Assembly: GCA_043820025.1 (NCBI GenBank)
Contig: JBDRED010000021.1
Span: 14,902-78,901, forward strand
DNA from: Elusimicrobiota bacterium
GTDB lineage: Bacteria; RUG730; JBDRED01
Direction: 5' to 3'
DNA: 64,000 nucleotides
Each line of letters opens with the position of its first letter. Positions within the stretch are counted from its first letter, which is position 1. The notes below the pieces were generated by a model that saw nothing but the letters and a program-made list of their open reading frames with translations, did no database searches and had not been told where the DNA came from. Made by a program: the position numbers and the translations under genes. Shown here piece by piece: positions 15,470 through 48,724 of the stretch.

Positions 15470-17258
15470 CTAAATGTTACTATCTTTTGCATTGACTGTC
15501 CTCAACTTTATCCCTAATTCAATAAGCTGTTTCTCATCAACACCTGAAGGCGCATTGGTTAATAAGCACGCTGCTTTTTGCGTTTTGGGAAACGCTATAA
15601 CATCTCGAATAGATTCCTTCTTTGCAAATATCATAATTAATCTATCGAGCCCTAAAGCAAGCCCTCCGTGAGGAGGCGCCCCATACTCTAAAGCGTCTAA
15701 CAAAAACCCGAACTTTGTTTTTGCTTCTTCATCAGAAATATTTATCAGTTCAAACACCTTCTTCTGAATATCCTTTTGATGAATACGAATACTGCCGCCG
15801 CCAATTTCAACGCCATTTACAACAACGTCATAAGCCCTGGACATTATCTTTGACGGATCTTGATTTAATTCATTAATATCTTTAATATCAGGAGCGGTAA
15901 ACGGATGATGAATAGCTTCAAAACGTTTTTCATCCTTATTGTATTCGAAAAGCGGGAAGCTATAGACCCAAACAAAGCTATAAACATTCTTTGGAATCAT
16001 CTCCAGCCTGCGCGCTAAAATAATTCTGAGCTGGCCTAAAACCTTTTGAGCTATCTTTGTTTCGTCGCTCACAATGAGCATTAAATCGCCCTTTTCTAAT
16101 TCAAGCGCTTTTATAATATTTTCAGTAGTAACTTCATCCATAAATTTAGAAACAGGAGATTCCAACCCTTTATCAGTATACTTTCCCCATACCAGCCCTT
16201 TTGCGCCCAGTTCCTTTGCTTTATCTGTAAGCTCATCCAGATCCTTTCTGGAAAATGAACCTGCCTTAGGCGCGCGCAATCCAATAACCTTTCCTCCTGA
16301 TTCTATTACAGACTTAAACACCTTAAATTCAGTATTTGCAAATACTGAAGATACATCATTTAAAAGCATTTCATAACGCGTGTCAGGCGCATCGCTTCCA
16401 TACAAACTCATAGCCTTTTCATAAGTCATTCTGGGAAAGGGTGTAGTAATATTTAAACCAAAAACAGCCAATGCTTCCTTTAACATTCCTTCAATAAGCT
16501 CATATATATCCTCTTCATGAATGAATGACATCTCAAGATCTATCTGTGTGAATTCGGGCTGTCTATCCGCGCGCAGGTCTTCGTCTCTAAAACATTTTGC
16601 TATTTGATAATATCTATCAAAACCCGCAACCATTAAAAGCTGTTTAAATAATTGCGGTGATTGGGGCAAAGCGAAAAAACTGCCGTTAGATACCCTGCTT
16701 GGCACCAAGTAATCACGCGCTCCCTCAGGGGTTGATTTTGTTAGTATTGGCGTTTCTATCTCAACAAAACTGCGCTCGCTAAAAAAACTGCGCACCTTTT
16801 GAAGAAACTGACTGCGATATCTAAAGACTTTTTGCATTTCCGGATTTCTCAAATCAAGATACCTGTATTTCAATCTGACATCCTCTGCTACTCCCATTGA
16901 TTCTTCTATATCAAATATACATGGCTTAGCCTGGTTTAAAACCTCTATATTAGTTAAAATTACCTCTATTTTACCTGTAGGCAAATCCTTATTTACAGTT
17001 CCCTCGGGCCGCATAGCAACCTTTCCTGTTATATTTAAAACAGTCTCAGGCTTTACATTATGTTTTACTATCTCATCAAGGGTTGAACTTGCGATTTCTT
17101 CAGGCCTGTATACAACCTGGACCAATCCTGAATAGTCTCTAAGGTCAAAAAAAAACAACACCGCCATGGTCCCTTCTGCTGTTAACCCAGCCCGCGATCT
17201 TGATATCTTTACCGCATAATTTTTCTGTTATTTCTCCGCACACATTTGTTCTATACAT
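15470..17258 (-). CDS. aspS: Aspartyl-tRNA synthetase, interrupted by an apparent +1 frameshift in a 9-A homopolymer at ~17147..17155
   Basis: Track ORF starts [14 protein letters not shown]; upstream in another frame [37 protein letters not shown] completes the AspS N-terminal anticodon-binding domain (cf. E. coli MRTEYCGQLR...[23 protein letters not shown]). Frames join only if the A9 run is A8. Confidence 0.85.
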
Positions 17259-17413: not shown

Positions 17414-17968
17414 TTATTCCTGAACGCCTTTAATAGATGTTCTTAAATAATCAAAGCCGGAAAGAATTGTTACCAGGCCTGTTAAATAATATAAATAAAT
17501 CAGATATTGTTCAATTGGAATGTATCCTTTTACTAGAATACATAGTACTGTAAGCATCTGCATAAATGTGGTAGATTTCCCAAGCGCGCTTGGACTTACC
17601 TTAGTTATGTTAAACACCAAATATAAAAAAAGCCACCCGTGAACTATCAAAATATCACGCATTAAAATTACTATAGTCAGCCACCACGGAATAACGCCTT
17701 TTATCGCGTAAATCATAAAAGCGCTTATCAAAAGAAGTTTATCTCCGGCAGGGTCAAGAAATGTGCCAAGCCTTGTCTTGCTTTTTGAAAGGCGCGCTAC
17801 TAATCCGTCAAGAGCGTCGCTTATCATGCACAAACTAAATATTCCAAGCGGGATATGTTTAACATTATAGACAACGGTTATAATAAAGGCCGGGACAAAG
17901 AGTATTCTTGCAAATGATATTTTATTCGGCAAGTTCATAATTTTACCTCTAAACCGCAAAACCACCAT
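17414..17968 (-). CDS. CDP-alcohol phosphatidyltransferase family protein (PgsA-like)
   Basis: DALDGLVARLSKSKTRLGTFLDPAGDKLL matches the D-x2-D-G-x2-AR...G-x3-D-x3-D motif; likely start MNLPNK at ~17938. Confidence 0.75.
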   Translation of the reverse strand: MVVLRFRGKIMNLPNKISFARILFVPAFIITVVYNVKHIPLGIFSLCMISDALDGLVARLSKSKTRLGTFLDPAGDKLLLISAFMIYAIKGVIPWWLTIVILMRDILIVHGWLFLYLVFNITKVSPSALGKSTTFMQMLTVLCILVKGYIPIEQYLIYLYYLTGLVTILSGFDYLRTSIKGVQE

Positions 17969-19728
17969 GCTCCGGGCATTGGAACTCCAAGTATTTCTTC
18001 ATAATATTCGCTAAATATATTTTTTCCCTTAACAAAAGCAGTTAAATCGCCAAAGTTTCTTGAAAACCTTACGTCAACATACCCGTATTCTTTGTAATTT
18101 ACCCTATCGTTATATGTGATTGTGAACGCGCTAAGAACATTATAAATCTTGGGCAGAGTAATATCAAATACTAAATTATTTCTAACATAATTAAGTCTGT
18201 ACTTTGAGACATAGTCATTTGCGACTGCGGCATATAAATCAATATAAATATAATTTAACTTAGTTTCACAGCTAAGCGCCTTTATGGTAGTATTAAATTC
18301 GAAACCTCTAACCCGGGCTAAATGGATATTACCCGCTATCCACTTATTATTTTTTAAGTAATAATCAATTACATCAGTTTCATCTCTGGCAAATATATTA
18401 GCCTCCCATATCAGTCCCAAATTATGAACAACGCCTGCCTCATATGTCCATGCTGTTTCGGGTTTTAAATCTAATGTGCCGACATTCGCAGGGCTTAAAT
18501 AATACCTGTCTGTAAAGCTCGGATAACTATGGCCTCTTGAAACAGACGCGCGCCATTTAAGCTCATCAGTCAGATCTCCGCCAAATCCCATATGCGGCAA
18601 AAGAATATTACCGTGCTGATCATTATACTCGTCACGTAGTCCGCACATAACCATTAGACTATTAAACTCTCCTTCATAACCGGCATAGCCTGCTGTGATG
18701 GTTTCTTGATATTCCCCGTTTATAGAGCTATCAAGATCATTCTGCGAAGCGCTGACATTCATACGCAGCGCGCCATTGTCAAGATCTCCGGATAGGCCTA
18801 TATCGCAGCCATAAGCGATTGATTCGGTTTCATTTATATATAATGCCGGATTATCGACAGTTAAAGTAAATTCATCATTATGTTCCTTAAAGAATATTTT
18901 AGGTATTAGCGTTGTTTTATTGTTTATGTAATGTTCTGACTGAATTGTTATAAAACTCTGCTGAAGTTTTTCATGAGAAGGATACGCGCCATAAAAACCG
19001 TTTGCGCCAAAATCTTTTTGATTATATCCCGCAATAAGGCTGAGTTTTGCGTTATTCAAAGAATGCCTGCTTATAAGCGAAACCCCATTCTCGTCAGACT
19101 GTGTTTCCCGTCTATACCCGGATGATTTTATCTTATTAAATGAAATAATATTATCAGTTCCGTTATAAGTAAGCGGTATTGATGCGTTTACTTCATACAG
19201 ATCATGACTGCCGAACATAATTCCTGCATTGATTTTTTTTTGACTCTCTTTTGTAATAATATTAATAACTCCGGCATACGCTCCGCTCCCATACAGCGAT
19301 GATGACGGCCCATAAACAACCTCAATTCTTTCAATATCATTTATCTGAACAGGGATATCCAAATTATGATGGCCTGTCTGTTTTTCATTTATGCTTATTC
19401 CATCAACCATAATAAGCACATGTTCAAAATAACTGCCTCTAACGCTTATATCCGAACTAATGTTTAGAGCGCCGCGCCTGTTAAAAGTTATAGATGGAAT
19501 TAAACTAAAAGCTTCATCAATTGTTGTGACTAAGTTTTTCTTTAATTCTTCGCCGGATATTACAAATGTCTTCCGGGTGGCTGCGACCGGAGCTGAATGG
19601 AACAGACTGCTTCGCACAGTCATTGTCGCAGAATACACCGAAAAATCTGCAGAATAAACAAAGCGGGATAGAATAATTACTAAAAACATTCCTATCCCAA
19701 ATTTTCTCATAATTACCTCCAAACACAT
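17935..19728 (-). CDS. TonB-dependent outer-membrane receptor (BtuB-size)
   Basis: Signal peptide then plug-domain-like region (VISGEELKK..., IERIEVVYGPSSSLYGSGAYAGVINIITK); ~590 aa beta-barrel-like remainder. Confidence 0.75.
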   Translation of the reverse strand: MCLEVIMRKFGIGMFLVIILSRFVYSADFSVYSATMTVRSSLFHSAPVAATRKTFVISGEELKKNLVTTIDEAFSLIPSITFNRRGALNISSDISVRGSYFEHVLIMVDGISINEKQTGHHNLDIPVQINDIERIEVVYGPSSSLYGSGAYAGVINIITKESQKKINAGIMFGSHDLYEVNASIPLTYNGTDNIISFNKIKSSGYRRETQSDENGVSLISRHSLNNAKLSLIAGYNQKDFGANGFYGAYPSHEKLQQSFITIQSEHYINNKTTLIPKIFFKEHNDEFTLTVDNPALYINETESIAYGCDIGLSGDLDNGALRMNVSASQNDLDSSINGEYQETITAGYAGYEGEFNSLMVMCGLRDEYNDQHGNILLPHMGFGGDLTDELKWRASVSRGHSYPSFTDRYYLSPANVGTLDLKPETAWTYEAGVVHNLGLIWEANIFARDETDVIDYYLKNNKWIAGNIHLARVRGFEFNTTIKALSCETKLNYIYIDLYAAVANDYVSKYRLNYVRNNLVFDITLPKIYNVLSAFTITYNDRVNYKEYGYVDVRFSRNFGDLTAFVKGKNIFSEYYEEILGVPMPGAWWFCGLEVKL

Positions 19729-22790: not shown

Positions 22791-23627
22791 TTAACTTAAC
22801 GCTTGAACCTTTGCGCTTATAATTCTATTTACTATTTCCAAAAACGCTTTTTTTGACTCTGTATGTTTTTCAAATAACACAAACGGTTTTCCTGTATCGC
22901 CTGAATGAACAATTTCTATCTCAAAAGGTATTTTTCCAAGGAAAGGCACGTGCAAATCATGCGCAGCCTTTTCTCCGCCGCCTTCTTTGAAAATAGCTGT
23001 TTTTTCTCCGCAATGCGGACATACAAACCCGCTCATATTTTCAATCACTCCTGCAACCGGTATGCCCAGTTTTTTCGCAAACAATACGCTTTTTCGTGAA
23101 TCAAGTATTGCAACATCCTGAGGAGTAGTCACAATAACAACTCCTGCAGCATTTGGTATGAGCTGGCATACGCTCAATGTCTCATCGCCGGTACCCGGAG
23201 GACAATCGATAATCAAATAATCCAATTCTCCCCAATTAACCTCTGTCAAAAATTGTTTTATAACATTTCCTTTAATCGGCCCTCTCCAAATAATAGGATC
23301 ATCGGGATGCACGCCCATTAAGGCTAAGCTCATTGCTTTTAAATGCGGGGTAACCTCAATAGTATCTATTCCAAACTCAGATTGAACGACGCAATCTTTT
23401 TCAATACCGAGCATTTTTGCAATATTCGGTCCATGTATATCAACATCCAAGATACCAACTTTATTATTTTGAAGAGAAAGCGCGTATGCAAGATTAACAG
23501 CAACAGATGTTTTTCCAACTCCGCCTTTTCCGCTCATAACAATAAAGACATTCTTTATTTTTGACATTTTAAATTTCAATAGCATTTCTTTATCTTGTGT
23601 TTGATCTTGACTGCAACCTGTATTCAT
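22791..23627 (-). CDS. Mrp/NBP35/ApbC-family Fe-S cluster carrier ATPase
   Basis: VMSGKGGVGKTSVAVNLAYAL deviant Walker A; C-terminal CPHCGEKTAIF. Confidence 0.85.
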   Translation of the reverse strand: MNTGCSQDQTQDKEMLLKFKMSKIKNVFIVMSGKGGVGKTSVAVNLAYALSLQNNKVGILDVDIHGPNIAKMLGIEKDCVVQSEFGIDTIEVTPHLKAMSLALMGVHPDDPIIWRGPIKGNVIKQFLTEVNWGELDYLIIDCPPGTGDETLSVCQLIPNAAGVVIVTTPQDVAILDSRKSVLFAKKLGIPVAGVIENMSGFVCPHCGEKTAIFKEGGGEKAAHDLHVPFLGKIPFEIEIVHSGDTGKPFVLFEKHTESKKAFLEIVNRIISAKVQALS

Positions 23628-23717
23628 AAAATTCTCCTTGTTAAGATTTTAAAAGATAATCCGCAATCTCTCTATTAAATGTATTCACGGAAAACATAGA
23701 ACAATGCAGATGATTTT

Positions 23718-24578
23718 CTAGCAGATTTTACAAATAATTTTATCCCAAATATTTCTTATTTCCTGCGAAACCTTCCCGTCTGTATATTCTACAAGAGGCA
23801 TACACACCACAATTGATTTACTTACAACGCTGTCAAATGATATTAGTCCTAAAATTTCTATGTTATTTTCAGCGCATAATGATTTGACTTTCTCGCAATT
23901 CTCCAAATTCAAATCAAATTTGTTTATAACGACCTTTGTAGTAATTTTGAAATGTTTTGCGAGTTCCATTACCCTTTGCATATCGTGAATACCCGAAACA
24001 GTCGGTTCAGTGATAATCACAGCCAAATCGATTCCCGCAAGCGATGCCATAACCGGACAGCCAATACCCGGAGGCCCGTCAATAATCACATAATCCGCTT
24101 TTTTTGCTTCTGCCAATTTTTTTGCTTCGTCACGAATTTTTGCAACGAGCTTGCCCGAATTTTCCTCTGCAATCCCAAGTTTTGCATGCACAAAATCTCC
24201 ATACTTGGTTTCTGAAATAAACCATTCGCCCGATATATTATCGCTCATTTTTATTGCGTCAACCGGACATATAATGGAGCAAAAACCACAGCCTTCACAG
24301 GAAATAGGGTCTAAATTAAAATTATCGTCAAACGCCTCAAATCTGCAGACAGTCTTGCATTGTCCGCATTTAATACATAAACTCTCATCAATAACCGCTG
24401 ATTTACCGCCAACAAACTTATTTCGCTCTAGAATTTTTGGTTTCAGTAAAATATATAAGTCTGCGGCGTCTACATCGCAGTCAACCATAATCTTATTCTT
24501 TGCCAATACAGCAAAGGAAGCAGTAAGAACTGTCTTACCTGTTCCTCCTTTTCCGCTAATAACCAATATTTGTTTCAT
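23718..24578 (-). CDS. MinD/ParA-superfamily P-loop ATPase with inserted 2x[4Fe-4S] ferredoxin domain (COG1149-type)
   Basis: ISGKGGTGKT P-loop; CIKCGQCKTVCRFEA and CEGCGFCSIICPVDAI ferredoxin motifs. Confidence 0.8.
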   Translation of the reverse strand: MKQILVISGKGGTGKTVLTASFAVLAKNKIMVDCDVDAADLYILLKPKILERNKFVGGKSAVIDESLCIKCGQCKTVCRFEAFDDNFNLDPISCEGCGFCSIICPVDAIKMSDNISGEWFISETKYGDFVHAKLGIAEENSGKLVAKIRDEAKKLAEAKKADYVIIDGPPGIGCPVMASLAGIDLAVIITEPTVSGIHDMQRVMELAKHFKITTKVVINKFDLNLENCEKVKSLCAENNIEILGLISFDSVVSKSIVVCMPLVEYTDGKVSQEIRNIWDKIICKIC

Positions 24579-24618
24579 TAGATCTTACCTCTGCCGCATA
24601 CAAAAACGTCTACCTTTG

Positions 24619-25485
24619 TCATACAAACCTCCTGGAAATTTCATTAAATAATTCTTGGAAATCTTTTTTATATTCCGGCAATGCCTGAAGAATAGAAATA
24701 CCTTTTGAATATGCATAAGCTATTTTTTTATCAAATGGAATTTTCATTAGAACATCAATATTTTCATTTTTACAATATTTTTCTGTTTTCATATCGCCTA
24801 TATCTGACCGATTTATCACTACGCCAAATGGTATTTTTAATTTTCTTATAACTTCTACAGCCAGCATTAAATCATTAAGGCCAAACGGCGTAGGCTCTGT
24901 GACTAAAACGCAAAAGCCGCTTTCTTTAACTGCCGCAATAACAGGGCATGAAGTCCCGGGAGGCGCGTCTATAATCACTGTCCGGCGAGGATTAATAAAT
25001 CTCTTAACCTGCTTTATAAGCGCCGGAGACATTATCTCGCCAATTGACAATCTTCCTGATACAAACTTTATTCCATCCCTATTGCCAATTTCTATGCTCC
25101 CGATTTTTTTCCCAATTTCTTTTATAGCTTTTTTGGGGCAAATATACGCGCATGCGCCACAGCTATGACAAAGATGCGGAAAGGTTAATACATTGCCTTT
25201 TTTATCATTATTTCCCGGTATAACAGCTATCGCATTGTATGCGCATACTGTTCTGCATTTGCCGCAATAATTACATAATGTTTCATCAATATACGGCGCA
25301 AGAACTACCGCATCAATCTTCTCGTCAATTATAGGCTTTAAAAATAAATGCGCATTTGGTTCTTCAACATCACAATCAAGAAACCAGGCGTTATTTAAAG
25401 CTAATGCGAGATTTACAGCTATTGTTGTTTTACCTGTTCCGCCTTTCCCGCTTGCGATTGATATAATACGGTTATTTATGTCCAT
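24619..25485 (-). CDS. Second MinD-type ATPase with ferredoxin insert (paralogue)
   Basis: ASGKGGTGKT; CNYCGKCRTVCAYNAI and CHSCGACAYICPKKAI. Confidence 0.8.
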   Translation of the reverse strand: MDINNRIISIASGKGGTGKTTIAVNLALALNNAWFLDCDVEEPNAHLFLKPIIDEKIDAVVLAPYIDETLCNYCGKCRTVCAYNAIAVIPGNNDKKGNVLTFPHLCHSCGACAYICPKKAIKEIGKKIGSIEIGNRDGIKFVSGRLSIGEIMSPALIKQVKRFINPRRTVIIDAPPGTSCPVIAAVKESGFCVLVTEPTPFGLNDLMLAVEVIRKLKIPFGVVINRSDIGDMKTEKYCKNENIDVLMKIPFDKKIAYAYSKGISILQALPEYKKDFQELFNEISRRFV

Positions 25486-25517
25486 GCTATTAACACTTCC
25501 TGTTTATCGTCATATCC

Positions 25518-25850
25518 TTAATTCATTTTTTCAAGTTTGCCTGTTTTGTACTGTTCAATTACATTTTTTATACCGCCGCCATTTGATAAATATATTTCTA
25601 TGCCGGCTGTCTTGAGAGTATTATATGCATTCTGTCCAACCTTACCTGTTAGTACGGCCTTTACGCCGCTTGAAATAACCGACTGAGCAGATTGTATTCC
25701 GGCTCCGCCTGTAAGATTTACATTAGTATTTTCTACTGCCTTAAATTCGTTTGTATCAGTATCAAAAATTATAAAATACGCGCACCGTCCAAATCTCATA
25801 TCAAGATTTGATTCTAATGTTTTCCCTTCGGATGTAATACATATCTTCAT
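25518..25850 (-). CDS. NifX/NafY/NifB-C-terminal-like (dinitrogenase FeMo-cofactor-binding family) small protein
   Basis: 110 aa; RFGRCAYFIIFDTDT...GGAGIQSAQSVISSGVKAVLTGKVGQNA pattern of Nitro_FeMo-Co family. Confidence 0.7.
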   Translation of the reverse strand: MKICITSEGKTLESNLDMRFGRCAYFIIFDTDTNEFKAVENTNVNLTGGAGIQSAQSVISSGVKAVLTGKVGQNAYNTLKTAGIEIYLSNGGGIKNVIEQYKTGKLEKMN

Positions 25851-25865
25851 TATGATTCTCCTTTT

Positions 25866-26228
25866 TTATTGGCATTCGCCATGTTCTTTACATCCTTCTA
25901 TGCCTTTAAGGCTGTTTTTTAGAAGTAATTCAATGCCGTCTTTTGCAGAGCCGCTATATCCAAATATTTCTATGTTTGCCATTGCAAATTTTTGCTGCGC
26001 GCCCATGCCCATACCGCCTGCAATAACATGCGTTATGTTATGTTTTAATATCTCATCAACCGCGACACATCCTCCGCCTCCATGCGCGGCAGTATTTGGA
26101 ACAACCTTATTATTTTTTATTTTGCCGTCTTCAATATCTACAATTAAAAAATATTTACACTGTCCAAAATGCTGAGATACTTCGCTCAACAATCCTTGTT
26201 CATCGTCCAACGTTATTCCTATTCTCAT
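25866..26228 (-). CDS. Second NifX/NafY-like cofactor-binding protein
   Basis: 120 aa; HFGQCKYFLIVDIEDG...GGGGCVAVDEILKHNITHVIAGGMGMGA. Confidence 0.7.
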   Translation of the reverse strand: MRIGITLDDEQGLLSEVSQHFGQCKYFLIVDIEDGKIKNNKVVPNTAAHGGGGCVAVDEILKHNITHVIAGGMGMGAQQKFAMANIEIFGYSGSAKDGIELLLKNSLKGIEGCKEHGECQ

Positions 26229-26231
26229 AAA

Positions 26232-26519
26232 TTAGCTCTCCTTTTTTTTTAAAGAATTTATAGTTTGGTTGAGATTATCTAATTCTTGTTTTAGATATTC
26301 AGCGCGCGCAGTTAACGAATCTATATTATTATTTTGTTCGTTGTAACTTCGATTTCTAAAACTTCTATTCAATCCTCTGCCACAGCCTCTTCCAAAACAA
26401 AACAATTTTTCGGTAAAAGACTGCTTATTCTTTTCATCAACAATGCTCACGCAATTCCCCATTCCTTTTCCTGTCATTCGGCCTAATCCATTTGGGCCCG
26501 TTCCATCTAATCTCGGCAT
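26232..26519 (-). CDS. DUF5320-like protein (MPRxDGTGPxG N-terminus, coiled-coil C-terminus)
   Basis: MPRLDGTGPNGLGRMTGKGMGNC... then heptad-like tail; AGGAGG RBS. Confidence 0.6.
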   Translation of the reverse strand: MPRLDGTGPNGLGRMTGKGMGNCVSIVDEKNKQSFTEKLFCFGRGCGRGLNRSFRNRSYNEQNNNIDSLTARAEYLKQELDNLNQTINSLKKKES

Positions 26520-26543
26520 AATTTATACCTCCTTTTATAATAA

Positions 26544-26558
26544 TGGAAACCATTTTCA
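26544..26558. promoter_or_regulatory. Palindromic operator candidate TGGAAAccaTTTTCA (6-3-6, one mismatch) upstream of the DUF5320 gene
   Basis: Read in sequence; ~25 nt upstream of start, immediately 5' of RBS; near-identical to site at 27053..27067. Confidence 0.5.
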
Positions 26559-26578
26559 GTTTATAGGCAAAAAATATA

Positions 26579-27037
26579 TTACCTATTCCTGCATTCTGAA
26601 CAAACTCCGGAAAACTGTATCAAATGATTTTTAATTTCAAACTTATATTTCTTAGATAATCCTTTTTCTGTTTTTGTCAATAGTTCTACTTCTTCGTCGA
26701 TAAAATCCTTATAATCAATAATCCGTTTGCATTCTGTGCAGACTAAATGATGATGGTGATTTTTTCCATCTGCTGCATCAACTATTTCATACCGCGCTCT
26801 TCCATCCCCAAAATCAAATTTTTGCAGCATACCCATATTAGCCAATACATCTAATGTTCTATATACTGTTGTTAATCCTATAGATGAATATTTTTTATGT
26901 ACTTTTAAATATATTTCTTCAGCGCTTAAATGACCTTTGGTATTAGTCAGAACATCTAAGATTGCTTCTCTTCCTATAGTTATTCTATAACCGCATCCTC
27001 GAAATTTGCCGTGCCATTCATCTTTTCTACAAGACAT
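26579..27037 (-). CDS. Fur-family metal-responsive transcriptional regulator (Fur/Zur/PerR class) with Cys-rich N-terminal extension
   Basis: HLSAEEIYLKV...GLTTVYRTLDVL winged helix; HHHHLVCTECKRI and CSECRN metal-site motifs. Confidence 0.8.
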   Translation of the reverse strand: MSCRKDEWHGKFRGCGYRITIGREAILDVLTNTKGHLSAEEIYLKVHKKYSSIGLTTVYRTLDVLANMGMLQKFDFGDGRARYEIVDAADGKNHHHHLVCTECKRIIDYKDFIDEEVELLTKTEKGLSKKYKFEIKNHLIQFSGVCSECRNR

Positions 27038-27052
27038 TTTATATCTCCTTAA

Positions 27053-27067
27053 TGAAAACCATTTTCA
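27053..27067. promoter_or_regulatory. Perfect palindrome TGAAAAccaTTTTCA, 16 nt upstream of the Fur-family gene start (autoregulatory operator candidate)
   Basis: Read in sequence; sits just 5' of AAGGAG RBS. Confidence 0.5.
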
Positions 27068-27169
27068 ATAAGATACATTAATAAACTTTTTATGTCAATA
27101 GTAATATTGTAGATACTCTTTGGAAGTTTTAAAGGTTTAATGAGTAATTATAGATTGCGCCATATGCAC

Positions 27170-28138
27170 TTACTCTGAAATTATTTTTAATATGCTTTGA
27201 AAATCTTCCGGTATTTCAGCCTCAAAATACATTCGTTCATTAGTCAACGGATGAGTAAAGCCTAATTTATACGAATGAAGCATAGGCCTTTTTATGTTAC
27301 CCTTAAACATCTTTGGGTTTACTCCATAAACCGGATCTCCGAGAATAGGAAGGCCTATATACTTAAGGTGAACTCGTATTTGATGCGTCCTGCCGGTCTT
27401 AATTGTCACCTCTAACAAATTTATATCATCTTTAAAACTTTTTACTACCTTGTATTTAGTTATTGCAGGCTTAGCTGATGTGTCAGCTGTAACTGTCATT
27501 TTTTTTCTATTCTGCGCATGGCGTCCGATAGACGCATCAATTATTCCTTCGGTAGATTTTAATTTGCCCTTCACAATCGCTAAATATATTTTCTCAATAG
27601 TCCTGTTATTAAACTGCCTTGCCAGGCCGCTAAGCGCCTTTTCAGTCTTAGCCACAATCATAATCCCGGACGTATCCTTGTCTAATCTATGCACAAGCCC
27701 GGGCCTTATCCATGCCATTGGATCGCGATTGTCCTTTGACGCAGGCAGATCCTTAAAATGATAAACAAGAGCATTAACCAATGTGCCGCCGGTATTGCCG
27801 CACGCAGGATGAACAACCATTCCCGCAGGTTTATTTAATACCACTATCTCATCATCTTCAAAGATAATATTTAGAGGAATATTCTGCGGAATAATTTCTG
27901 TAAACTGCGTATTTTCAATAAGCGATATTTCAATTTCATCGCCATCTCTTAGATGATAACCGGCATTTGATCCTTTTTTATTTACTAAGACATGTGAATC
28001 TTTAATAAGATTTTTAAAATATGTCCGCGAATATTGCGGATAATTTTTTGAGAGAAAAGCGTCTAAACGCCTGCCTTTAAATTCCATTGAAATAATTATT
28101 TTTTCATGTTTCATATTATTACTCATCGCCCAAAGCAT
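27170..28138 (-). CDS. rluD: RluA-family 23S rRNA pseudouridine synthase (RluD-like)
   Basis: S4 domain (RLDAFLSKNYPQYSRTYFKNLIKDSHVLVN) and catalytic HRLDKDTSGIMIVAKT; start codon choice uncertain (overlaps lgt). Confidence 0.85.
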   Translation of the reverse strand: MLWAMSNNMKHEKIIISMEFKGRRLDAFLSKNYPQYSRTYFKNLIKDSHVLVNKKGSNAGYHLRDGDEIEISLIENTQFTEIIPQNIPLNIIFEDDEIVVLNKPAGMVVHPACGNTGGTLVNALVYHFKDLPASKDNRDPMAWIRPGLVHRLDKDTSGIMIVAKTEKALSGLARQFNNRTIEKIYLAIVKGKLKSTEGIIDASIGRHAQNRKKMTVTADTSAKPAITKYKVVKSFKDDINLLEVTIKTGRTHQIRVHLKYIGLPILGDPVYGVNPKMFKGNIKRPMLHSYKLGFTHPLTNERMYFEAEIPEDFQSILKIISE

Positions 28139-34675: not shown

Positions 34676-35301
34676 AAGAGCAATAACTTCGCCCTTAATC
34701 CTTCAAGATTATACATATAACAATCTATATTTTCTATCTTTTGCGCCAAATCAGTAAGCTGTAAATTATTTCCAATCCAGGACGCAAAATCACTCACTCC
34801 CTTACCGCTCCTAAGACGCGCGTCAAATATATGAAAATATATTACGCTTGCATCAATCGCTTTGATTGTATTTCTAAAATCCTTTAATGTTTTGACACTT
34901 ATTCCTGTAGGAACATCAACAATACATGACTTCATAAAATAGAAAGGCTGTCCATGCGTCAACGTGGGAATAGATCCAAGTTCAGATAAATGTTCGTCTA
35001 AAATCTCTACCAGGATATTTCTAACATCTTCCATACGCATTTTTTGAAGAGGAGTAACTGACGCAAGTTTTTCGCCTAATACACGATCCCTAAGCTGAAT
35101 AGAAGTCCAGTTTGCAAAATCATTTGGATATGGCCCGCCAATATTATAATCTGAATGTTTAAAATAAAAGGTATGCATGTGATAATAAATAGAATCTAAA
35201 GGAACCTCTTCCATAAGCTCCATCAGCTTTAATTCATTATCAGCTCTTCTTCCCAGAAGTTCAGTTATTTGATAACAGCTTTTGAAAACAAAATTTTTCA
35301 T
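34651..35301 (-). CDS. Hypothetical protein translationally coupled to treT
   Basis: 216 aa, no motif recognised; stop overlaps treT start region. Confidence 0.5.
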   Translation of the reverse strand: MKNFVFKSCYQITELLGRRADNELKLMELMEEVPLDSIYYHMHTFYFKHSDYNIGGPYPNDFANWTSIQLRDRVLGEKLASVTPLQKMRMEDVRNILVEILDEHLSELGSIPTLTHGQPFYFMKSCIVDVPTGISVKTLKDFRNTIKAIDASVIYFHIFDARLRSGKGVSDFASWIGNNLQLTDLAQKIENIDCYMYNLEGLRAKLLLLCDEEMSK

Positions 35302-45140: not shown

Positions 45141-45617
45141 ATGTCCAATTTTAATCCGAAACTAAGCAAACATGAAAAAAACGGCAAATCAATGTTTGTC
45201 TGTGATCAAACCAGGACACAGCTTTTGCCAAGACTTCAAGAAATTCAAATCAAACAAGGATACATTTCAGACAGGGATATGCAGGAACTTGCTGATGAGC
45301 TCGGACTTCATCCTGTGGAAGTTTACTCTATTGTAACCTTTTACTCATTTCTTTCAATAAAACCTAAAAGCCGCCACATTATTCGCGTCAGTAACTGCAT
45401 CTCCTGCAAGATGGCCGGAAGTGAAATCATTTTAAAGGAATTTGAAAATGAATTAGGCATTAAGACCGGCAAAACATCGCAAGATAATATCACACTTGAA
45501 TTGACAAGCTGTATTGGAATGTGCGACCAAGCGCCTGCTCTTATAGCCGATGATGTTGTGTATAGCAGTGTAACTCGAGAAACCGTAAAAAAAATAGTGC
45601 AAAATTTAAGAAAATAA
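45141..45617 (+). CDS. NuoE/HndA-like [2Fe-2S] thioredoxin-fold subunit of bifurcating-type hydrogenase
   Basis: CISCKMAGSE...LELTSCIGMCDQAPALIADDVVY Cys pattern of NuoE family. Confidence 0.8.
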   Translation: MSNFNPKLSKHEKNGKSMFVCDQTRTQLLPRLQEIQIKQGYISDRDMQELADELGLHPVEVYSIVTFYSFLSIKPKSRHIIRVSNCISCKMAGSEIILKEFENELGIKTGKTSQDNITLELTSCIGMCDQAPALIADDVVYSSVTRETVKKIVQNLRK

Positions 45618-45627
45618 GGAGAACTAA

Positions 45628-46833
45628 ATGGCAAAAAGAAATGGCCCTGTAATATTTAGTGAGATCAAATCAAATTCAGCACTAGAAAAAGCAATCCTGC
45701 TTGGCAGTGAAAAAATAATAAGCCTAATAAAAGATTCTAATCTCCGCGGCAGAGGCGGGGCCGGCTTCCCCACAGGCCTTAAATGGCAGTTTGTGGCAGA
45801 TTCGCAATCCTTAGAAAAATATGTTGTATGCAACGCGGACGAAGGCGAACCCGGAACATTTAAAGACAGAGTGTTATTATCCGAATACCCCGGGCTAATA
45901 TTCGACGGCATGGTAATCGCAGGACTTGCTATAGGAGCAAATAAAGGATTTCTTTATTTGCGCGGCGAATATAGGTATATGCTTGCTGATTTGGAAAAAG
46001 AACTTACAGAAATGAGAAAAGGCGGAGCGCTTGGCAAAGACATTTTAGGCGCTAAAGAATTTAATTTTGATATAGAGATTAAACTTGGATCAGGCGCGTA
46101 TGTATGCGGAGAAGAAACAGCGCTCATTGAATCAATGGAGGGCTATAGAGGCGAACCTAGAAACAGGCCTCCATTTCCTGTAGATACCGGATACACTTGC
46201 TTTCCAACTATTGTAAATAATGTTGAGACATTCGCAACTATTCCCCATATTATTGCAAAAGGCGCAGATTGGTTTAAATCCTTTGGCACAGAAAAATCAT
46301 CCGGTTCAAAACTTTTAAGCATTTCAGGAGACTGCTCTAATCCCGGAGTATACGAGGTTGTATTTGGCACAACTGTACAAGAAGCGCTCGACATTGCCGG
46401 AGCAAACGATACAAAGGCTGTTCAAATCGGAGGAGCATCCGGTATATGTATTGGAAAAAAGGATTTTAATAGAAAAATAGCCTATGAAGATATTCCGACA
46501 GGCGGTTCATTTATAATATTTAATAAATCAAGAAACTTAATAGACGCTATTGAAAACTTTTTAGATTTTTTCAAGGAAGAATCCTGCGGCCAATGCACGC
46601 CATGCCGCGAAGGCATACCTGTTCTAATTGAGGCAGTATCATTATTAAGAAAAGGCGATTGTTCAGCGGATTATTTAAATGACATTCAGTCATTATGCGA
46701 AACAATGCAGTTAGCGTCAAAATGCGGACTGGGACAATCAGCGCCTAACGCATTTTTATCTGTTATAAAGAATTTTCAAGACGAATATGTTCTATCAAAA
46801 AAATCTAAAAAGGAGATATCATTCAATGGATAA
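45628..46833 (+). CDS. NuoF-like NADH/FMN-binding subunit of [FeFe] hydrogenase complex
   Basis: GRGGAGFPTGLKW, SGAYVCGEETALIESMEG, ESCGQCTPCREG. Confidence 0.85.
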   Translation: MAKRNGPVIFSEIKSNSALEKAILLGSEKIISLIKDSNLRGRGGAGFPTGLKWQFVADSQSLEKYVVCNADEGEPGTFKDRVLLSEYPGLIFDGMVIAGLAIGANKGFLYLRGEYRYMLADLEKELTEMRKGGALGKDILGAKEFNFDIEIKLGSGAYVCGEETALIESMEGYRGEPRNRPPFPVDTGYTCFPTIVNNVETFATIPHIIAKGADWFKSFGTEKSSGSKLLSISGDCSNPGVYEVVFGTTVQEALDIAGANDTKAVQIGGASGICIGKKDFNRKIAYEDIPTGGSFIIFNKSRNLIDAIENFLDFFKEESCGQCTPCREGIPVLIEAVSLLRKGDCSADYLNDIQSLCETMQLASKCGLGQSAPNAFLSVIKNFQDEYVLSKKSKKEISFNG

Positions 46834-48724
46834 TAAACCATTTGGAGGGCCTGCTTCACGCGCCCCAAGAAGCCAAAGTTTAAGAGATGTCACAAATGAT
46901 TCAAGAATTAATCTTGAAGGCAAGGAAATGATTGATATTACCATTGATCATCTGAAACATAAAATATTAAAGGGCTCAACAATACTACAGGCAGCAAAAG
47001 AGCTTAATATTAAAATCCCCACACTCTGCCAGCACGACGATCTTTGCCTTGCAGGCGTATGCCGCGTATGTGTTGTTGAAGTCAGCGGAGAACGCACTCT
47101 TCAATCCGCGTGTTCATATCCTATATTAAAATCAATTGAGGTTAACACTTACTCGCCAAAGGTTAGACGCGCGCGAAAAAATATTCTCCAGCTTCTATTA
47201 AGAAACCATTATGGCGAATGCTATTCCTGCAGAAGAAACAATAACTGCGAACTTCAAGAACTTGCGAAGGAATACGGCGTTACAAACTATAAATTCGGAC
47301 ATATAAATAAACCAAGATATGCTCAAGACTCGTCAAGTTATTCAGTTGAAAGAGATATGAATAAATGCGTGCTTTGCAGAAGATGCGTCAGAACTTGTAT
47401 TGACCTTCAAGAAGTAGGCGTATTAGAAGCAGGCTTTAGAGGATCTGATACAAAAATTGTAACATATTTAGATAAACCTCTTGCTGACGTGATTTGTATA
47501 AATTGCGGCCAATGCATAAACCGCTGTCCCACAGGCGCGCTAAAAGCAAAAAGCGCTGTTGACTTAGCGTGGGAAGCAATCGATAATCCTGAAAAACACG
47601 TTATCATTCAGACTGCGCCCAGCCCAAGAGCCGCAATAGGCGAAGAGTTCGGGCTTCCTGCCGGAACAAGCGTTACGAAAAAACTAAATACAGCTCTAAA
47701 AAGAGTAGGATTTAATAAAGTTTTTGACACAAATTTTACAGCTGATTTAACAATTATGGAAGAAGGCACAGAACTCTTAATAAAACTAAAAAAGGCTCTT
47801 GTTGATAAAGATAAAAGCGTAATGCTTCCTCAATTTACTTCCTGCTCTCCGGGATGGGTTAAATATATTGAGCACTTTTATCCTGAAAAACTTGGACATG
47901 TTTCAACAGCAAAAAGCCCGCAGCAGATGTTCGGCGCAATAGTAAAAACATGGTACGCTCAAAAAAATAATATAGACCCAAAAAACATTGTAAGCGTTTC
48001 TCTTATGCCTTGTTCTGCCAAAAAATTTGAATGCGAACGTCCGGAGATGAACAGCTCGGGCTTCAAAGATGTTGATATAGCTCTTACTACGCGCGAGCTT
48101 GCTGATATGATAAAGGAATGCGGCATTGACCTCCCGAATCTACCGGAATCCGCATTTGATGACCCTCTGGGTATCGGATCAGGAGCAGCATTAATTTTTG
48201 GAGCAACAGGCGGAGTTATGGAAGCTGCAATTAGAACTGTTTATGAAATAGTTACAGGCGAAGAGGTTCCTTTTAAAAATCTTGATATCATGCCTGTGCG
48301 CGGAATGGAAGGAATACGAGAAGCATCCCTCCCAATTCCAAAGGCTGTAGCAGAATGGAAGTTTTTAGAAGGAGCGACTCTTAAGGTCATGGTAGGCCAT
48401 GGCACGGCTAATGCTAAGGAAATAATGGACATGCTTGTAAGAGGCGAACTTAATGATTATCATTTTGTAGAGATAATGGCCTGCCCCGGCGGATGCTTGG
48501 GCGGCGGCGGACAGCCTATACCAACAAGCCCGGAAATAAGACAAGCGCGCGCAAACGCGATATATGCGGAAGACGAAGGCCTGCCGCTTAGAAAGTCTCA
48601 CGAAAATCCTATAGTAAAGGAAATATATAAAGAATTTTTAACAGACGGGCCATGCGGCCATAAGAGCCATAAATTATTGCATACTTCGTATTTAAAACGC
48701 GGCAAATGGATTGGAAAAAAATAG
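46787..48724 (+). CDS. hydA: [FeFe] hydrogenase catalytic subunit (M3-type, CpI-like cluster complement)
   Basis: N-terminal 2Fe-2S and 4Fe-4S motifs (CRVCVVEV, HYGECYSCRRNNNC, CVLCRRCVRTC, CINCGQCINRCP); H-cluster motifs FTSCSPGW (L1 variant), MPCSAKKFE (L2), EIMACPGGCLGGGGQP (L3). Likely start MDNKPF at ~46826 overlapping upstream stop. Confidence 0.9.
   Translation: MFYQKNLKRRYHSMDNKPFGGPASRAPRSQSLRDVTNDSRINLEGKEMIDITIDHLKHKILKGSTILQAAKELNIKIPTLCQHDDLCLAGVCRVCVVEVSGERTLQSACSYPILKSIEVNTYSPKVRRARKNILQLLLRNHYGECYSCRRNNNCELQELAKEYGVTNYKFGHINKPRYAQDSSSYSVERDMNKCVLCRRCVRTCIDLQEVGVLEAGFRGSDTKIVTYLDKPLADVICINCGQCINRCPTGALKAKSAVDLAWEAIDNPEKHVIIQTAPSPRAAIGEEFGLPAGTSVTKKLNTALKRVGFNKVFDTNFTADLTIMEEGTELLIKLKKALVDKDKSVMLPQFTSCSPGWVKYIEHFYPEKLGHVSTAKSPQQMFGAIVKTWYAQKNNIDPKNIVSVSLMPCSAKKFECERPEMNSSGFKDVDIALTTRELADMIKECGIDLPNLPESAFDDPLGIGSGAALIFGATGGVMEAAIRTVYEIVTGEEVPFKNLDIMPVRGMEGIREASLPIPKAVAEWKFLEGATLKVMVGHGTANAKEIMDMLVRGELNDYHFVEIMACPGGCLGGGGQPIPTSPEIRQARANAIYAEDEGLPLRKSHENPIVKEIYKEFLTDGPCGHKSHKLLHTSYLKRGKWIGKK

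What the first reader, a model, noticed from the sequence alone, without database searches (positions are those of the whole stretch)
26544..27067. Two near-identical palindromic operator candidates (TGAAAAccaTTTTCA) before the Fur-family gene and before the downstream DUF5320 gene
A perfect 6-3-6 palindrome lies 16 nt upstream of the regulator's ATG, just 5' of its RBS. A one-mismatch copy (TGGAAAccaTTTTCA) occupies the same position before the next gene. The spacing and arms differ from the classical Fur box (7-1-7 TGATAATnATTATCA) and from the PerR box, suggesting a distinct recognition motif and autoregulation.
Basis: seen in the sequence. Interest (0 to 1): 0.6.

Follow-up and report, generated by a model that had tools for sequence, protein, structure and literature searches.

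The report
Known-type Fur-family operator pair
The two palindromes are real, conserved binding sites of a well-known type for the metal-sensing Fur-family repressor encoded between them, so this is an ordinary self-regulating metal switch found in a little-studied group of bacteria.

Summary
Both sites are in the sequence as described: 27053-27067 and 26544-26558, with the genes on the minus strand. A weight matrix trained only on orthologous sites from other genomes scores them 30.2 and 21.5 bits. The next best site in the 64 kb window scores 4.7. The same boxes sit at the same two positions, before fur and between fur and DUF5320, in Elusimicrobiota, Omnitrophota and Spirochaetota contigs. 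They are therefore functional operators, and autoregulation is well supported. The claim of a distinct motif with different spacing is not supported. Read with its relatives, the element is a 7-1-7 inverted repeat, TAATGAAAAT-n-ATTTTCATTA. This is the classical Fur-box architecture with one changed base per arm. It matches the published delta-proteobacterial 'dFUR-box' (WTGAAAATNATTTTCAW) and the mycobacterial/actinobacterial Zur box. Box A abuts the -10 of a TTGACA-17-TATCTT promoter. Box B lies in the 59-nt spacer ahead of a DUF5320, NifX-like and MinD/ferredoxin ATPase operon that resembles the ORP cluster. The effector is unproven. Fe(II) is most likely from protein similarity and ligand residues, but a conserved PerR-like Asp and the Zur-like box leave alternatives open. 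Verdict: a new member of a known kind, of modest interest.

The parts
27050..27070 (-). Box A: a 21-bp Fur-family operator. On the minus strand it reads TATTGAAAATGGTTTTCATTA. It is a 7-1-7 repeat with one mismatch at the innermost base of one arm.
   Evidence: It scores 30.2 bits with the weight matrix trained on other genomes. Orthologous boxes occur upstream of fur in 12 related genome loci.
27070..27098 (-). Predicted sigma-70-type promoter P1 of fur. The -35 TTGACA is at 27098-27093, followed by a 17-nt spacer and the -10 TATCTT at 27075-27070. The last base of the -10 is the first base of box A, so the box covers the expected transcription start.
   Evidence: This is the best promoter match in the region, 10 of 12. 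A TTGACA followed by a -10-like hexamer a few nt before the box is visible in most relatives. L003 has TTGACA-17-TATATT, 11 of 12, with the -10 ending where the box begins.
26579..27037 (-). The fur-family regulator gene, 152 aa. Its ribosome-binding site AAGGAG is at 27045-27050.
   Evidence: PF01475, E 6.5e-32. The best NCBIfam match is a Bacillus-type Fur at 133.6 bits, below its cut-off. The best PDB match is the Fur structure 9ire at 102.5 bits. Ligand residues are shown in alignment A1.
26541..26561 (-). Box B: a second 21-bp operator in the 59-nt fur-DUF5320 spacer. On the minus strand it reads AACTGAAAATGGTTTCCATTA. The 15-mer core is 26544-26558, with two mismatches to TGAAAATnATTTTCA.
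   Evidence: It scores 21.5 bits. Orthologous boxes occur in the fur-DUF5320 spacer of 9 related genome loci. Both boxes also score in 7 metagenome loci.
26569..26600 (-). Weak internal promoter-like site P2. TTCAGA is at 26600-26595, followed by a 16-nt spacer and TATATT at 26578-26573. It overlaps a T6 tract at 26574-26569, which lies 10-15 nt upstream of the box B core.
   Evidence: The match is 9 of 12, which is no better than the shuffle background for the region. L003 has an equivalent TTGTAA-17-TATATT. The T-tract is conserved in all 10 loci that have box B. Its function is inferred only.
23718..26519 (-). Genes downstream of box B, separated by gaps of 3-40 nt. They are DUF5320 (26232-26519), two Nitro_FeMo-Co / NifX-like proteins (25866-26228 and 25518-25850), and two MinD/ParA-type ATPases each carrying 4Fe-4S ferredoxin motifs (24619-25485 and 23718-24578). 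Their content resembles the ORP cluster. An Mrp/NUBPL ATPase follows at 22791-23627.
   Evidence: Pfam and NCBIfam results. The gene order is conserved in related loci. Composition of the ORP complex is taken from PMC6345978.

Best explanation
The two palindromes are operators of the classical Fur-family 7-1-7 type, with consensus TAATGAAAAT-n-ATTTTCATTA. They are bound by dimers of the metal-loaded Fur-family repressor encoded between them.

Box A abuts the -10 hexamer and covers the expected transcription start of the fur promoter. The loaded repressor should therefore block RNA polymerase and autoregulate fur.

Box B lies in the 59-nt spacer after fur. It gives a second checkpoint on the DUF5320, NifX-like and MinD/ferredoxin-ATPase genes, either by repressing a weak internal promoter or by blocking read-through from the fur promoter.

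Shown here: the sites, their significance, their conservation and positions, and the identity of the motif with published Fur-family boxes. Inferred: binding by this particular protein, repression as the mode of action, and Fe(II) as the co-repressor.
For: 1. Both sites are far above background with a matrix trained on other genomes (30.2 and 21.5 bits against 4.7 for the next best).

2. Of the related genome loci that reach far enough upstream, 12 carry a box with at most one mismatch 30-70 nt before the matched start of fur. Nine carry a second box in the fur-DUF5320 spacer. These loci are labelled Endomicrobiaceae, Elusimicrobiaceae, Omnitrophota and Spirochaetota.

3. Information content is 1.39-1.40 bits per position over the 21-nt box, against 0.3-0.7 in the flanks.

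4. In metagenome loci found through one box, a second box was present at the other position in 7 loci.

5. In 170 kb of 30 loci that encode this fur subfamily, every site scoring 13 bits or more lies at the box A or box B position.

6. A TTGACA-17-TATCTT promoter match ends exactly where box A begins, and the arrangement recurs in relatives.

7. The motif equals the dFUR-box found upstream of fur and feoAB genes (PMC545781).

8. The protein is a complete Fur-family member. It has the DNA-recognition helix IGLTTVYRTL, two CxxC pairs, and His/Glu/Asp ligands at H36, E84, H93-96, D107 and H138.

9. It is most similar to iron-sensing Fur: NCBIfam gives 133.6 bits for Bacillus-type Fur, 87.9 for PerR and 33.1 for Zur. 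The best PDB match is the Fur structure 9ire.

10. The sequence of the arms is conserved rather than covarying, no Rfam family matches, and the site B hairpin is no better than shuffled sequence (z -0.36).
Against: 1. No binding or expression data exist for this protein.

2. The box does not identify the effector. The identical 21-mer is a validated Zur box in mycobacteria. In a sample of 120 metagenome loci with the exact motif, the commonest neighbours were ZIP and ZnuA zinc-transport genes. No feoB was found in any fetched locus or in the window.

3. The subfamily carries Asp at the position of B. subtilis PerR D104, where Fur and Zur have Glu.

4. No other site was found in the 64 kb window, so membership in a wider iron regulon is untested.

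5. The internal promoter before box B is weak (9 of 12, at the shuffle background), so how box B acts is not settled.

6. Some relatives (L007-L009, L016) lack box B.
Confidence: 0.7

Rival explanations
1. The operators and the regulator are as described, but the signal is not iron sufficiency. The subfamily could be a PerR-like sensor of peroxide or redox state, using metal-catalysed oxidation of its His/Asp site. It could instead sense another metal such as Zn or Mn. On this reading it acts as a dedicated local regulator of the ORP-like operon.
For: Asp107 is conserved across the subfamily at the position of PerR D104, whereas Fur and Zur have Glu. By my recollection of Parent et al. 2013, not checked here, a Glu-to-Asp change at this position makes Fur peroxide-sensitive. 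The recognition helix IGLTTVYRTL is identical to that of M. tuberculosis Zur, and the box equals the mycobacterial Zur box. All high-scoring sites in 170 kb of related loci belong to the operon itself. In D. vulgaris the homologous orp genes are controlled by a redox-sensing regulator, OrpR (abstract of PMC8359166). No feoB lies near any sampled exact motif.
Against: Overall similarity favours Fur over PerR and Zur. The Cys ligand seen in the hinge of actinobacterial Zur is absent, with Glu84 in its place. The helix has Arg60, the Fur/Zur type, rather than the Asn of PerR, and the box has G at position 2 rather than the T of PerR boxes. The target genes are not zinc-uptake genes or classical peroxide-defence genes.
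Confidence: 0.2
2. The boxes are bound mainly by a different Fur-family paralogue encoded elsewhere in the genome, for example a Zur or a global Fur. The adjacent regulator would then be a target rather than the binder.
For: At least two distinct Fur-family lineages use the same motif. Cross-regulation between paralogues is known in the family (my knowledge).
Against: The boxes travel with this specific fur subfamily across phyla, at fixed positions flanking the gene. That pattern is the signature of a self-contained regulator-operator module. No other Fur-family gene was noticed among the window's genes that were examined.
Confidence: 0.05
3. The palindromes act at the RNA level, as small hairpins next to the ribosome-binding sites that modulate translation or mRNA stability.
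For: The site A region folds into a hairpin adjacent to the Shine-Dalgarno sequence (-9.6 kcal/mol, z -2.56).
Against: The stem is a 6-bp, A-U-rich stem. The site B fold is no better than shuffled sequence (z -0.36). The single difference between the two sites is not compensated. Across phyla the base identities of the arms are conserved rather than covarying. No Rfam match reaches significance. Box A begins right after the -10, so much of it may lie at or before the transcript start.
Confidence: 0.03
4. The sites are chance AT-rich palindromes with no function.
For: The window is AT-rich, and loose pattern matches occur elsewhere (5 found against 1.34 expected at one mismatch or fewer).
Against: An exact match is expected 0.03 times per window. 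Matrix scores are far above all shuffles for site A and above the largest shuffle maximum for site B. The positions are conserved across phyla.
Confidence: 0.01

Closest known systems
dFUR-box of metal-reducing delta-proteobacteria (WTGAAAATNATTTTCAW; Rodionov et al. 2004, PMC545781)
   Same: It is the same 17-bp palindrome and the same 7-1-7 architecture. It is likewise found upstream of fur genes, implying autoregulation. Overlapping boxes shifted by 6 bp also occur in two related loci here, L043 and L072.
   Different: Here it occurs in Elusimicrobiota, Omnitrophota and Spirochaetota. The controlled genes are a DUF5320 / NifX-like / MinD-ferredoxin operon, not feoAB. A second box lies inside the operon. 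Whether the regulator belongs to the FUR_Delta branch was not tested.
Mycobacterial/actinobacterial Zur (FurB) box (e.g. TAATGAAAATCATTTTCATTA; PMC4298942, PMC5472717)
   Same: The 21-bp consensus is identical. The recognition helix IGLTTVYRTL is identical to that of M. tuberculosis Zur (2o03).
   Different: The regulator lacks the Zur-type Cys ligand, having Glu84, and has His36. It scores much lower against the Zur model than against Fur models (33 versus 134 bits). The targets are not zinc-uptake genes.
Classical Fur box (B. subtilis 7-1-7 TGATAATnATTATCA; E. coli 19-bp GATAATGATAATCATTATC)
   Same: It has the same 7-1-7 inverted-repeat geometry, the same TGA...TCA ends and the same overlap with the promoter. 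One relative, L006, carries TGATAAT-type boxes at the same two positions.
   Different: Position 4 of each arm is A instead of T. In this genome the innermost base of one arm is also C. Site A has 3 mismatches in 14 positions to the B. subtilis consensus.
PerR box (TTATAATnATTATAA) and PerR sensors
   Same: It is a Fur-family 7-1-7 operator with autoregulation. The protein has Asp at the PerR D104 position.
   Different: The box has G, not T, at position 2. The recognition helix has Arg60, not Asn. Overall similarity is lower than to Fur.
orp (Orange Protein complex) operons of Desulfovibrio vulgaris, controlled by sigma-54 and OrpR (PMC6345978, PMC8359166)
   Same: The target genes have the same content: Di-Nase/NifX-like proteins, two MinD-like ATPases with 2x[4Fe-4S] motifs, and an Mrp/NBP35 ATPase nearby.
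   Different: Regulation here is by a Fur-family repressor with sigma-70-type promoters. There are no divergent operons. A DUF5320 gene is added. The Mrp protein here is a single-domain protein.

Membership tests
Fur-family 7-1-7 operator (Fur box in the broad sense) | A 15-bp inverted repeat with 7-nt arms around one central base, and TGA...TCA ends | tested here: met
   On the minus strand site A is TGAAAAT-G-GTTTTCA, with one arm mismatch. Site B is TGAAAAT-G-GTTTCCA, with two. Orthologous sites are perfect, for example TGAAAATCATTTTCA.
Fur-family 7-1-7 operator (Fur box in the broad sense) | The site overlaps or abuts the core promoter of the regulated gene | tested here: met
   Box A begins at the last base of the -10 of TTGACA-17-TATCTT, and the arrangement recurs in relatives. 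This is a prediction only, because no transcription start has been mapped. For box B the result is inconclusive, since the promoter match is weak.
Fur-family 7-1-7 operator (Fur box in the broad sense) | A cognate Fur-family regulator with an intact winged-helix domain and metal sites | tested here: met
   PF01475, E 6.5e-32. The helix IGLTTVYRTL, two CxxC pairs, and H36/E84/H93-96/D107/H138 are present.
Fur-family 7-1-7 operator (Fur box in the broad sense) | Metal-dependent binding of the regulator to the site | not testable with these tools
   This needs EMSA or footprinting.
dFUR-box (Rodionov 2004) | A match to WTGAAAATNATTTTCAW | tested here: met
   Site A matches 15 of 16 specified positions and site B 13 of 16. 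Orthologous sites often match 16 of 16.
dFUR-box (Rodionov 2004) | The box precedes fur and ferrous-iron transporter feoAB genes of the same genome | tested here: inconclusive
   It precedes fur. No feoB is present in the window or in any fetched locus, and the rest of the genome is not available.
Actinobacterial Zur box / Zur regulon | A regulator with the Zur-type sensing site, including a hinge Cys, and targets in zinc acquisition | tested here: not met
   Glu84 aligns within one residue of the hinge Cys in the RRC motif of M. tuberculosis Zur, and no Cys is present there. The Zur model scores 33 bits against 134 for Fur. The targets are DUF5320, NifX-like and MinD-type genes. The DNA motif itself does match.
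PerR box / PerR | A TTATAATnATTATAA box and Asn in the recognition helix | tested here: not met
   The box has G at position 2. The helix has Arg60, reading TVYRTL against TVYNNL in 2fe3. The PerR-like Asp107 is nevertheless present.
ORP-type gene cluster (target operon) | Di-Nase (Nitro_FeMo-Co) proteins, two MinD-like ATPases with 2x[4Fe-4S] motifs, and an Mrp/NBP35 protein | tested here: met
   Pfam and NCBIfam hits, compared with the description in PMC6345978. Formation of a complex is not testable here.

The most novel reading that the evidence does not exclude
The regulator may represent a distinct Fur subfamily. Its marks are a Trp-rich N-terminal extension, a conserved DFIDEE insertion, and a PerR-like Asp in the sensing site. 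It has spread as a self-contained module (fur, box A, box B, DUF5320) through several phyla of uncultivated anaerobes. On this reading it is a dedicated sensor for the ORP-like metallocluster operon, possibly of redox or oxidant state or of iron-sulfur status, rather than a global iron regulator. Box B, always preceded by a conserved T-tract, would then act as a repressor roadblock. RNA polymerase would stall on a U-rich hybrid there and terminate read-through.
Probability: 0.15. Interest if true: 0.55.

Novelty: new member of a known kind. Interest (0 to 1): 0.3.

Why it matters
The motif itself adds nothing new to the biology of Fur-family operators. Its modest value is in annotation. It gives a ready-made operator model for a Fur subfamily that is abundant in Elusimicrobiota, Omnitrophota, Ratteibacteria and Spirochaetota metagenomes. 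It also links DUF5320 and ORP-like NifX/MinD-ferredoxin clusters, whose function is unknown, to metal- or redox-responsive control. That link offers a concrete handle for studying those genes: derepression when the effector is withdrawn. Finally, the case shows that the box sequence alone cannot assign the metal, because the same 21-mer serves Fur in delta-proteobacteria and Zur in actinobacteria.

Tried and rejected
1. The sites at 15918, 36097 and 56136, and the two-mismatch hits at 34760, 60281 and 62922, score 4 bits or less with the orthologue-trained matrix. I treat them as chance. No further regulon member is visible in the 64 kb.

2. RNA element. There is no meaningful Rfam hit; the only one is a lncRNA model at E 0.09. 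The folds are unremarkable, especially at site B.

3. Intrinsic terminator between fur and DUF5320. None was found in the window, L003 or L012.

4. Defining the metal from neighbours of the exact motif in metagenomes. This gave mainly zinc genes belonging to a different Fur-family lineage, plus fur-DUF5320 modules. No feoB turned up. The test was therefore uninformative for this subfamily's effector.

5. Literature on DUF5320 and on Fur control of NifX/MinD clusters. Nothing relevant was found.

6. A search for open-access papers with experimental validation of the dFUR-box found none directly. My recollection that D. vulgaris fur-mutant and G. sulfurreducens Fur studies support it is unverified here.

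Full report
**What is in the sequence**

All genes around the finding are on the minus strand. In order they are:
- a pseudouridine synthase (27170-28138);
- a 132-nt spacer;
- a 152-aa Fur-family gene (26579-27037; PF01475, E 6.5e-32);
- a 59-nt spacer;
- DUF5320 (26232-26519);
- two Nitro_FeMo-Co (NifX-like) genes (25866-26228 and 25518-25850);
- two MinD/ParA-type ATPases with 4Fe-4S ferredoxin motifs (24619-25485 and 23718-24578);
- an Mrp/NUBPL ATPase (22791-23627) and a metallo-beta-lactamase-fold gene.

Gaps from DUF5320 to the second ATPase are 3-40 nt, so these genes probably form one operon. The fur protein is 100% identical to a database protein from an Elusimicrobiota MAG.

On the coding strand they read TGAAAATGGTTTTCA (27067 to 27053) and TGAAAATGGTTTCCA (26558 to 26544). 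The first ends 15 nt before the fur ATG. The second ends 24 nt before the DUF5320 ATG and starts 20 nt after the fur stop codon.

**Is it more than chance?**

I built a 21-nt weight matrix from 23 sites taken only from other genomes. The window's two sites score 30.2 and 21.5 bits with it. The next best of about 64,000 positions scores 4.7. In 200 shuffles the mean maximum was 8.6 and the largest was 18.8. The additional loose matches at 15918, 36097, 56136, 34760, 60281 and 62922 all score 4 bits or less and are noise.

**Comparative evidence**

A scan of one genome per species found 17 loci encoding relatives of the regulator at 52-81% identity. They come from MAGs labelled Endomicrobiaceae, Elusimicrobiaceae, Omnitrophota, Spirochaetota and Ratteibacteria.
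- Twelve loci have a box with at most one mismatch 30-70 nt before the matched start of fur.
- Nine have a second box in the fur-DUF5320 spacer.
- Anchored on the box, information content is 1.39-1.40 bits per position over the 21-nt box, against 0.3-0.7 in the flanks.
- The gene order fur, (DUF5320), NifX, NifX, MinD/Fer, MinD/Fer is also conserved.

In a separate scan of metagenome contigs for the exact 19-mer AATGAAAATNATTTTCATT, about a dozen further loci carry this fur subfamily at 45-69% identity next to the motif. Seven of them have a second high-scoring box at the other position. Across 170 kb of the 30 loci that carry this subfamily, every site of 13 bits or more is at the box A or box B position.

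The boxes are therefore functional, and they are tied to this regulator gene.

**What the motif really is**

The orthologous sites show the true symmetry: AATGAAAAT-C-ATTTTCATT. This is a 7-1-7 inverted repeat, extended to 9-1-9. The window's 6-3-6 reading arises because the innermost base of one arm is C instead of T (TGAAAAT-G-GTTTTCA). The spacing is the same as in the classical 7-1-7 Fur box. The arm differs from TGATAAT only at position 4. One relative, L006, even has TGATAAT-type boxes at the same two positions.

The consensus is already in the literature.
- Rodionov et al. 2004 derived WTGAAAATNATTTTCAW, the 'dFUR-box', upstream of feoAB and fur genes in Geobacter, Desulfuromonas and Desulfovibrio. 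They noted that it differs from the E. coli and B. subtilis box (PMC545781).
- Mycobacterial Zur (FurB) sites include CCGTAATGAAAATCATTTTCATTA (PMC4298942).
- The computed actinobacterial Zur box is taaTGaNAANNNTTNtCANta, described as a 7-1-7 palindrome (PMC5472717).

Consistent with this, the commonest neighbours of the exact motif in my metagenome sample were divergent ZIP-transporter and ABM gene pairs with a distant Fur-family gene (28-35% identity) about 0.8 kb away. ZnuA lipoproteins were also common. The claim of a distinct recognition motif with different spacing is therefore not supported.

**How it most likely works**

On the minus strand the best sigma-70-type match in the region is TTGACA (27098-27093), a 17-nt spacer, then TATCTT (27075-27070). 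The last base of the -10 is the first base of the 21-nt box A. In relatives a TTGACA followed by a -10-like hexamer lies a few nt before the box (L003 matches 11 of 12). A dimer bound at box A would therefore cover the transcription start. That is the standard repressor geometry, and it implies autoregulation. This step is inferred from positions, since no transcription start has been mapped.

Box B is less clear.
- A weak promoter-like site (TTCAGA-16-TATATT, 26600 to 26573, 9 of 12) lies just upstream of it. L003 has an equivalent. L012, from Spirochaetota, does not.
- No terminator-like hairpin exists between fur and DUF5320.
- Box B thus represses either an internal promoter or read-through from the fur promoter.
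- A T-tract of 6-8 T lies 10-19 nt upstream of box B in all 10 loci that have it. That is about where RNA polymerase would stall against a bound repressor. The idea is speculative.

The RNA-hairpin alternative is weak.
- The stem is short and A-U-rich.
- The site B fold is no better than shuffled sequence.
- The arm sequences are conserved rather than covarying.
- Rfam gives nothing significant.

**Which signal?**

The box cannot tell, because Fur and Zur lineages share it.

The protein evidence favours iron-type Fur.
- NCBIfam gives Bacillus-type Fur 133.6 bits, clostridial PerR 87.9 and Zur 33.1. All are below the curated cut-offs.
- The best PDB match is the Fur structure 9ire at 102.5 bits. 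It is ahead of C. jejuni Fur (74.0), B. subtilis PerR (70.6) and M. tuberculosis Zur (63.6).

I made alignment A1 with PerR (2fe3) and Zur (2o03). In A1 the subfamily has:
- His36, Glu84, His93-96, Asp107 and His138;
- two CxxC pairs;
- Glu84, not Cys, aligned within one residue of the hinge Cys of Zur;
- Arg60 in the recognition helix, the Fur/Zur type, where PerR has Asn.

Two features leave doubt. Asp107 is conserved at the position of PerR Asp104, where Fur and Zur have Glu. From memory (Parent et al. 2013), that change confers peroxide sensitivity on Fur. The helix IGLTTVYRTL is also identical to that of M. tuberculosis Zur.

The subfamily additionally has a Trp-rich N-terminal extension and a conserved DFIDEE insertion. 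No feoB lies in the window or in any of the 137 fetched loci.

I therefore rate 'operators of the adjacent Fur-family repressor, with autoregulation' as well supported. Fe(II) is the most likely effector but is unproven.

**The target genes**

The operon content matches the Orange Protein (ORP) complex of Desulfovibrio vulgaris. That complex comprises Di-Nase/NifX-like proteins, two MinD-like ATPases with 2x[4Fe-4S] motifs, and an Mrp/NBP35 Fe-S carrier. Its genes are expressed from sigma-54-dependent promoters, and the regulator OrpR is described as redox-sensing (PMC6345978; abstract of PMC8359166). The same Di-Nase family includes the thioferrate-storage protein IssA.

Control by a Fur-family repressor in these uncultivated anaerobes points to a metal- or redox-linked role for the cluster and for DUF5320. 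I found no literature on DUF5320 function.

**Verdict**

The finding is a new member of a known kind, namely a dFUR/Zur-type 7-1-7 box pair in a new lineage with a less usual target operon. Interest is modest (0.3).

The most novel reading still open is a distinct Fur subfamily acting as a dedicated sensor, with a roadblock-type second operator. I give that about 15%.

Noticed in passing
window 26569-26574 (minus strand T6); L001-L003 and L010-L015, 10-19 nt upstream of box B: A run of 6-8 T directly after the fur stop codon and just upstream of box B is conserved in all 10 loci that have box B, across Endomicrobia/Elusimicrobia and Spirochaetota. No hairpin precedes it, so it is not a classical terminator. 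It could belong to an internal promoter, or it could be a U-rich stall site for polymerase blocked by the repressor.
   Followed up: partly
box B in window 26541-26561 and in L001-L003, L010-L015; box A in window 27050-27070: Box B keeps an asymmetric centre (AAAATGGTTTT) in 10 loci, whereas box A is usually symmetric (AAAATCATTTT). In the window both boxes have the ATGG centre and are identical at 17 of 18 positions. Elsewhere box B can be perfectly symmetric, for example in L029, L043 and L048. No explanation was found.
   Followed up: partly
window 26579-27037 (-) and alignment A1: The Fur subfamily has three conserved features: a Trp-rich N-terminal extension (WHGKFRGCGYR or PWWQEKF), a six-residue acidic insertion (DFIDEE) after the sensing-site Asp, and Asp where Fur and Zur have Glu, the PerR D104 position. 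The homology search returned more than 2,500 relatives. All of the best 120 are 64% identical or more, mostly from Omnitrophota-type metagenomes.
   Followed up: partly
window 22791-26519 (-): The gene cluster resembles the ORP cluster: DUF5320, two NifX-like/Di-Nase proteins, two MinD-type ATPases with 2x[4Fe-4S] motifs, an Mrp/NUBPL ATPase and a metallo-beta-lactamase-fold gene. It is conserved next to this fur in several phyla. DUF5320 has no functional literature.
   Followed up: partly
L043 2730-2756 and L072 1891-1917: Two overlapping boxes shifted by 6 bp (AATTGAAAATGAAAATCATTATCATTT), the same arrangement that Rodionov et al. described for Desulfovibrio Fur sites.
   Followed up: no
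L006 2134-2154 and 2785-2805: An Elusimicrobium sp. relative has classical TGATAAT-type boxes at the same two positions, before fur and before DUF5320. This suggests that A and T are interchangeable at arm position 4 for this subfamily.
   Followed up: no
L018, L022, L024, L036, L038, L044 and about 25 more metagenome loci: The exact 19-mer sits between divergent ZIP zinc-transporter and ABM-domain genes. A distant Fur-family gene (28-35% identity) lies about 0.8 kb away. This looks like an abundant Zur-controlled module in environmental bacteria, probably actinobacteria.
   Followed up: partly
window 17935-19728 (-): A TonB-dependent receptor gene lies about 7 kb from the operon. It has no Fur-type box upstream.
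   Followed up: no
whole window: Nearly all long ORFs are on the minus strand; only 45141-48724 runs the other way. Base composition is skewed, with C 22% against G 15% on the plus strand. This is consistent with one replication arm with co-oriented genes.
   Followed up: no
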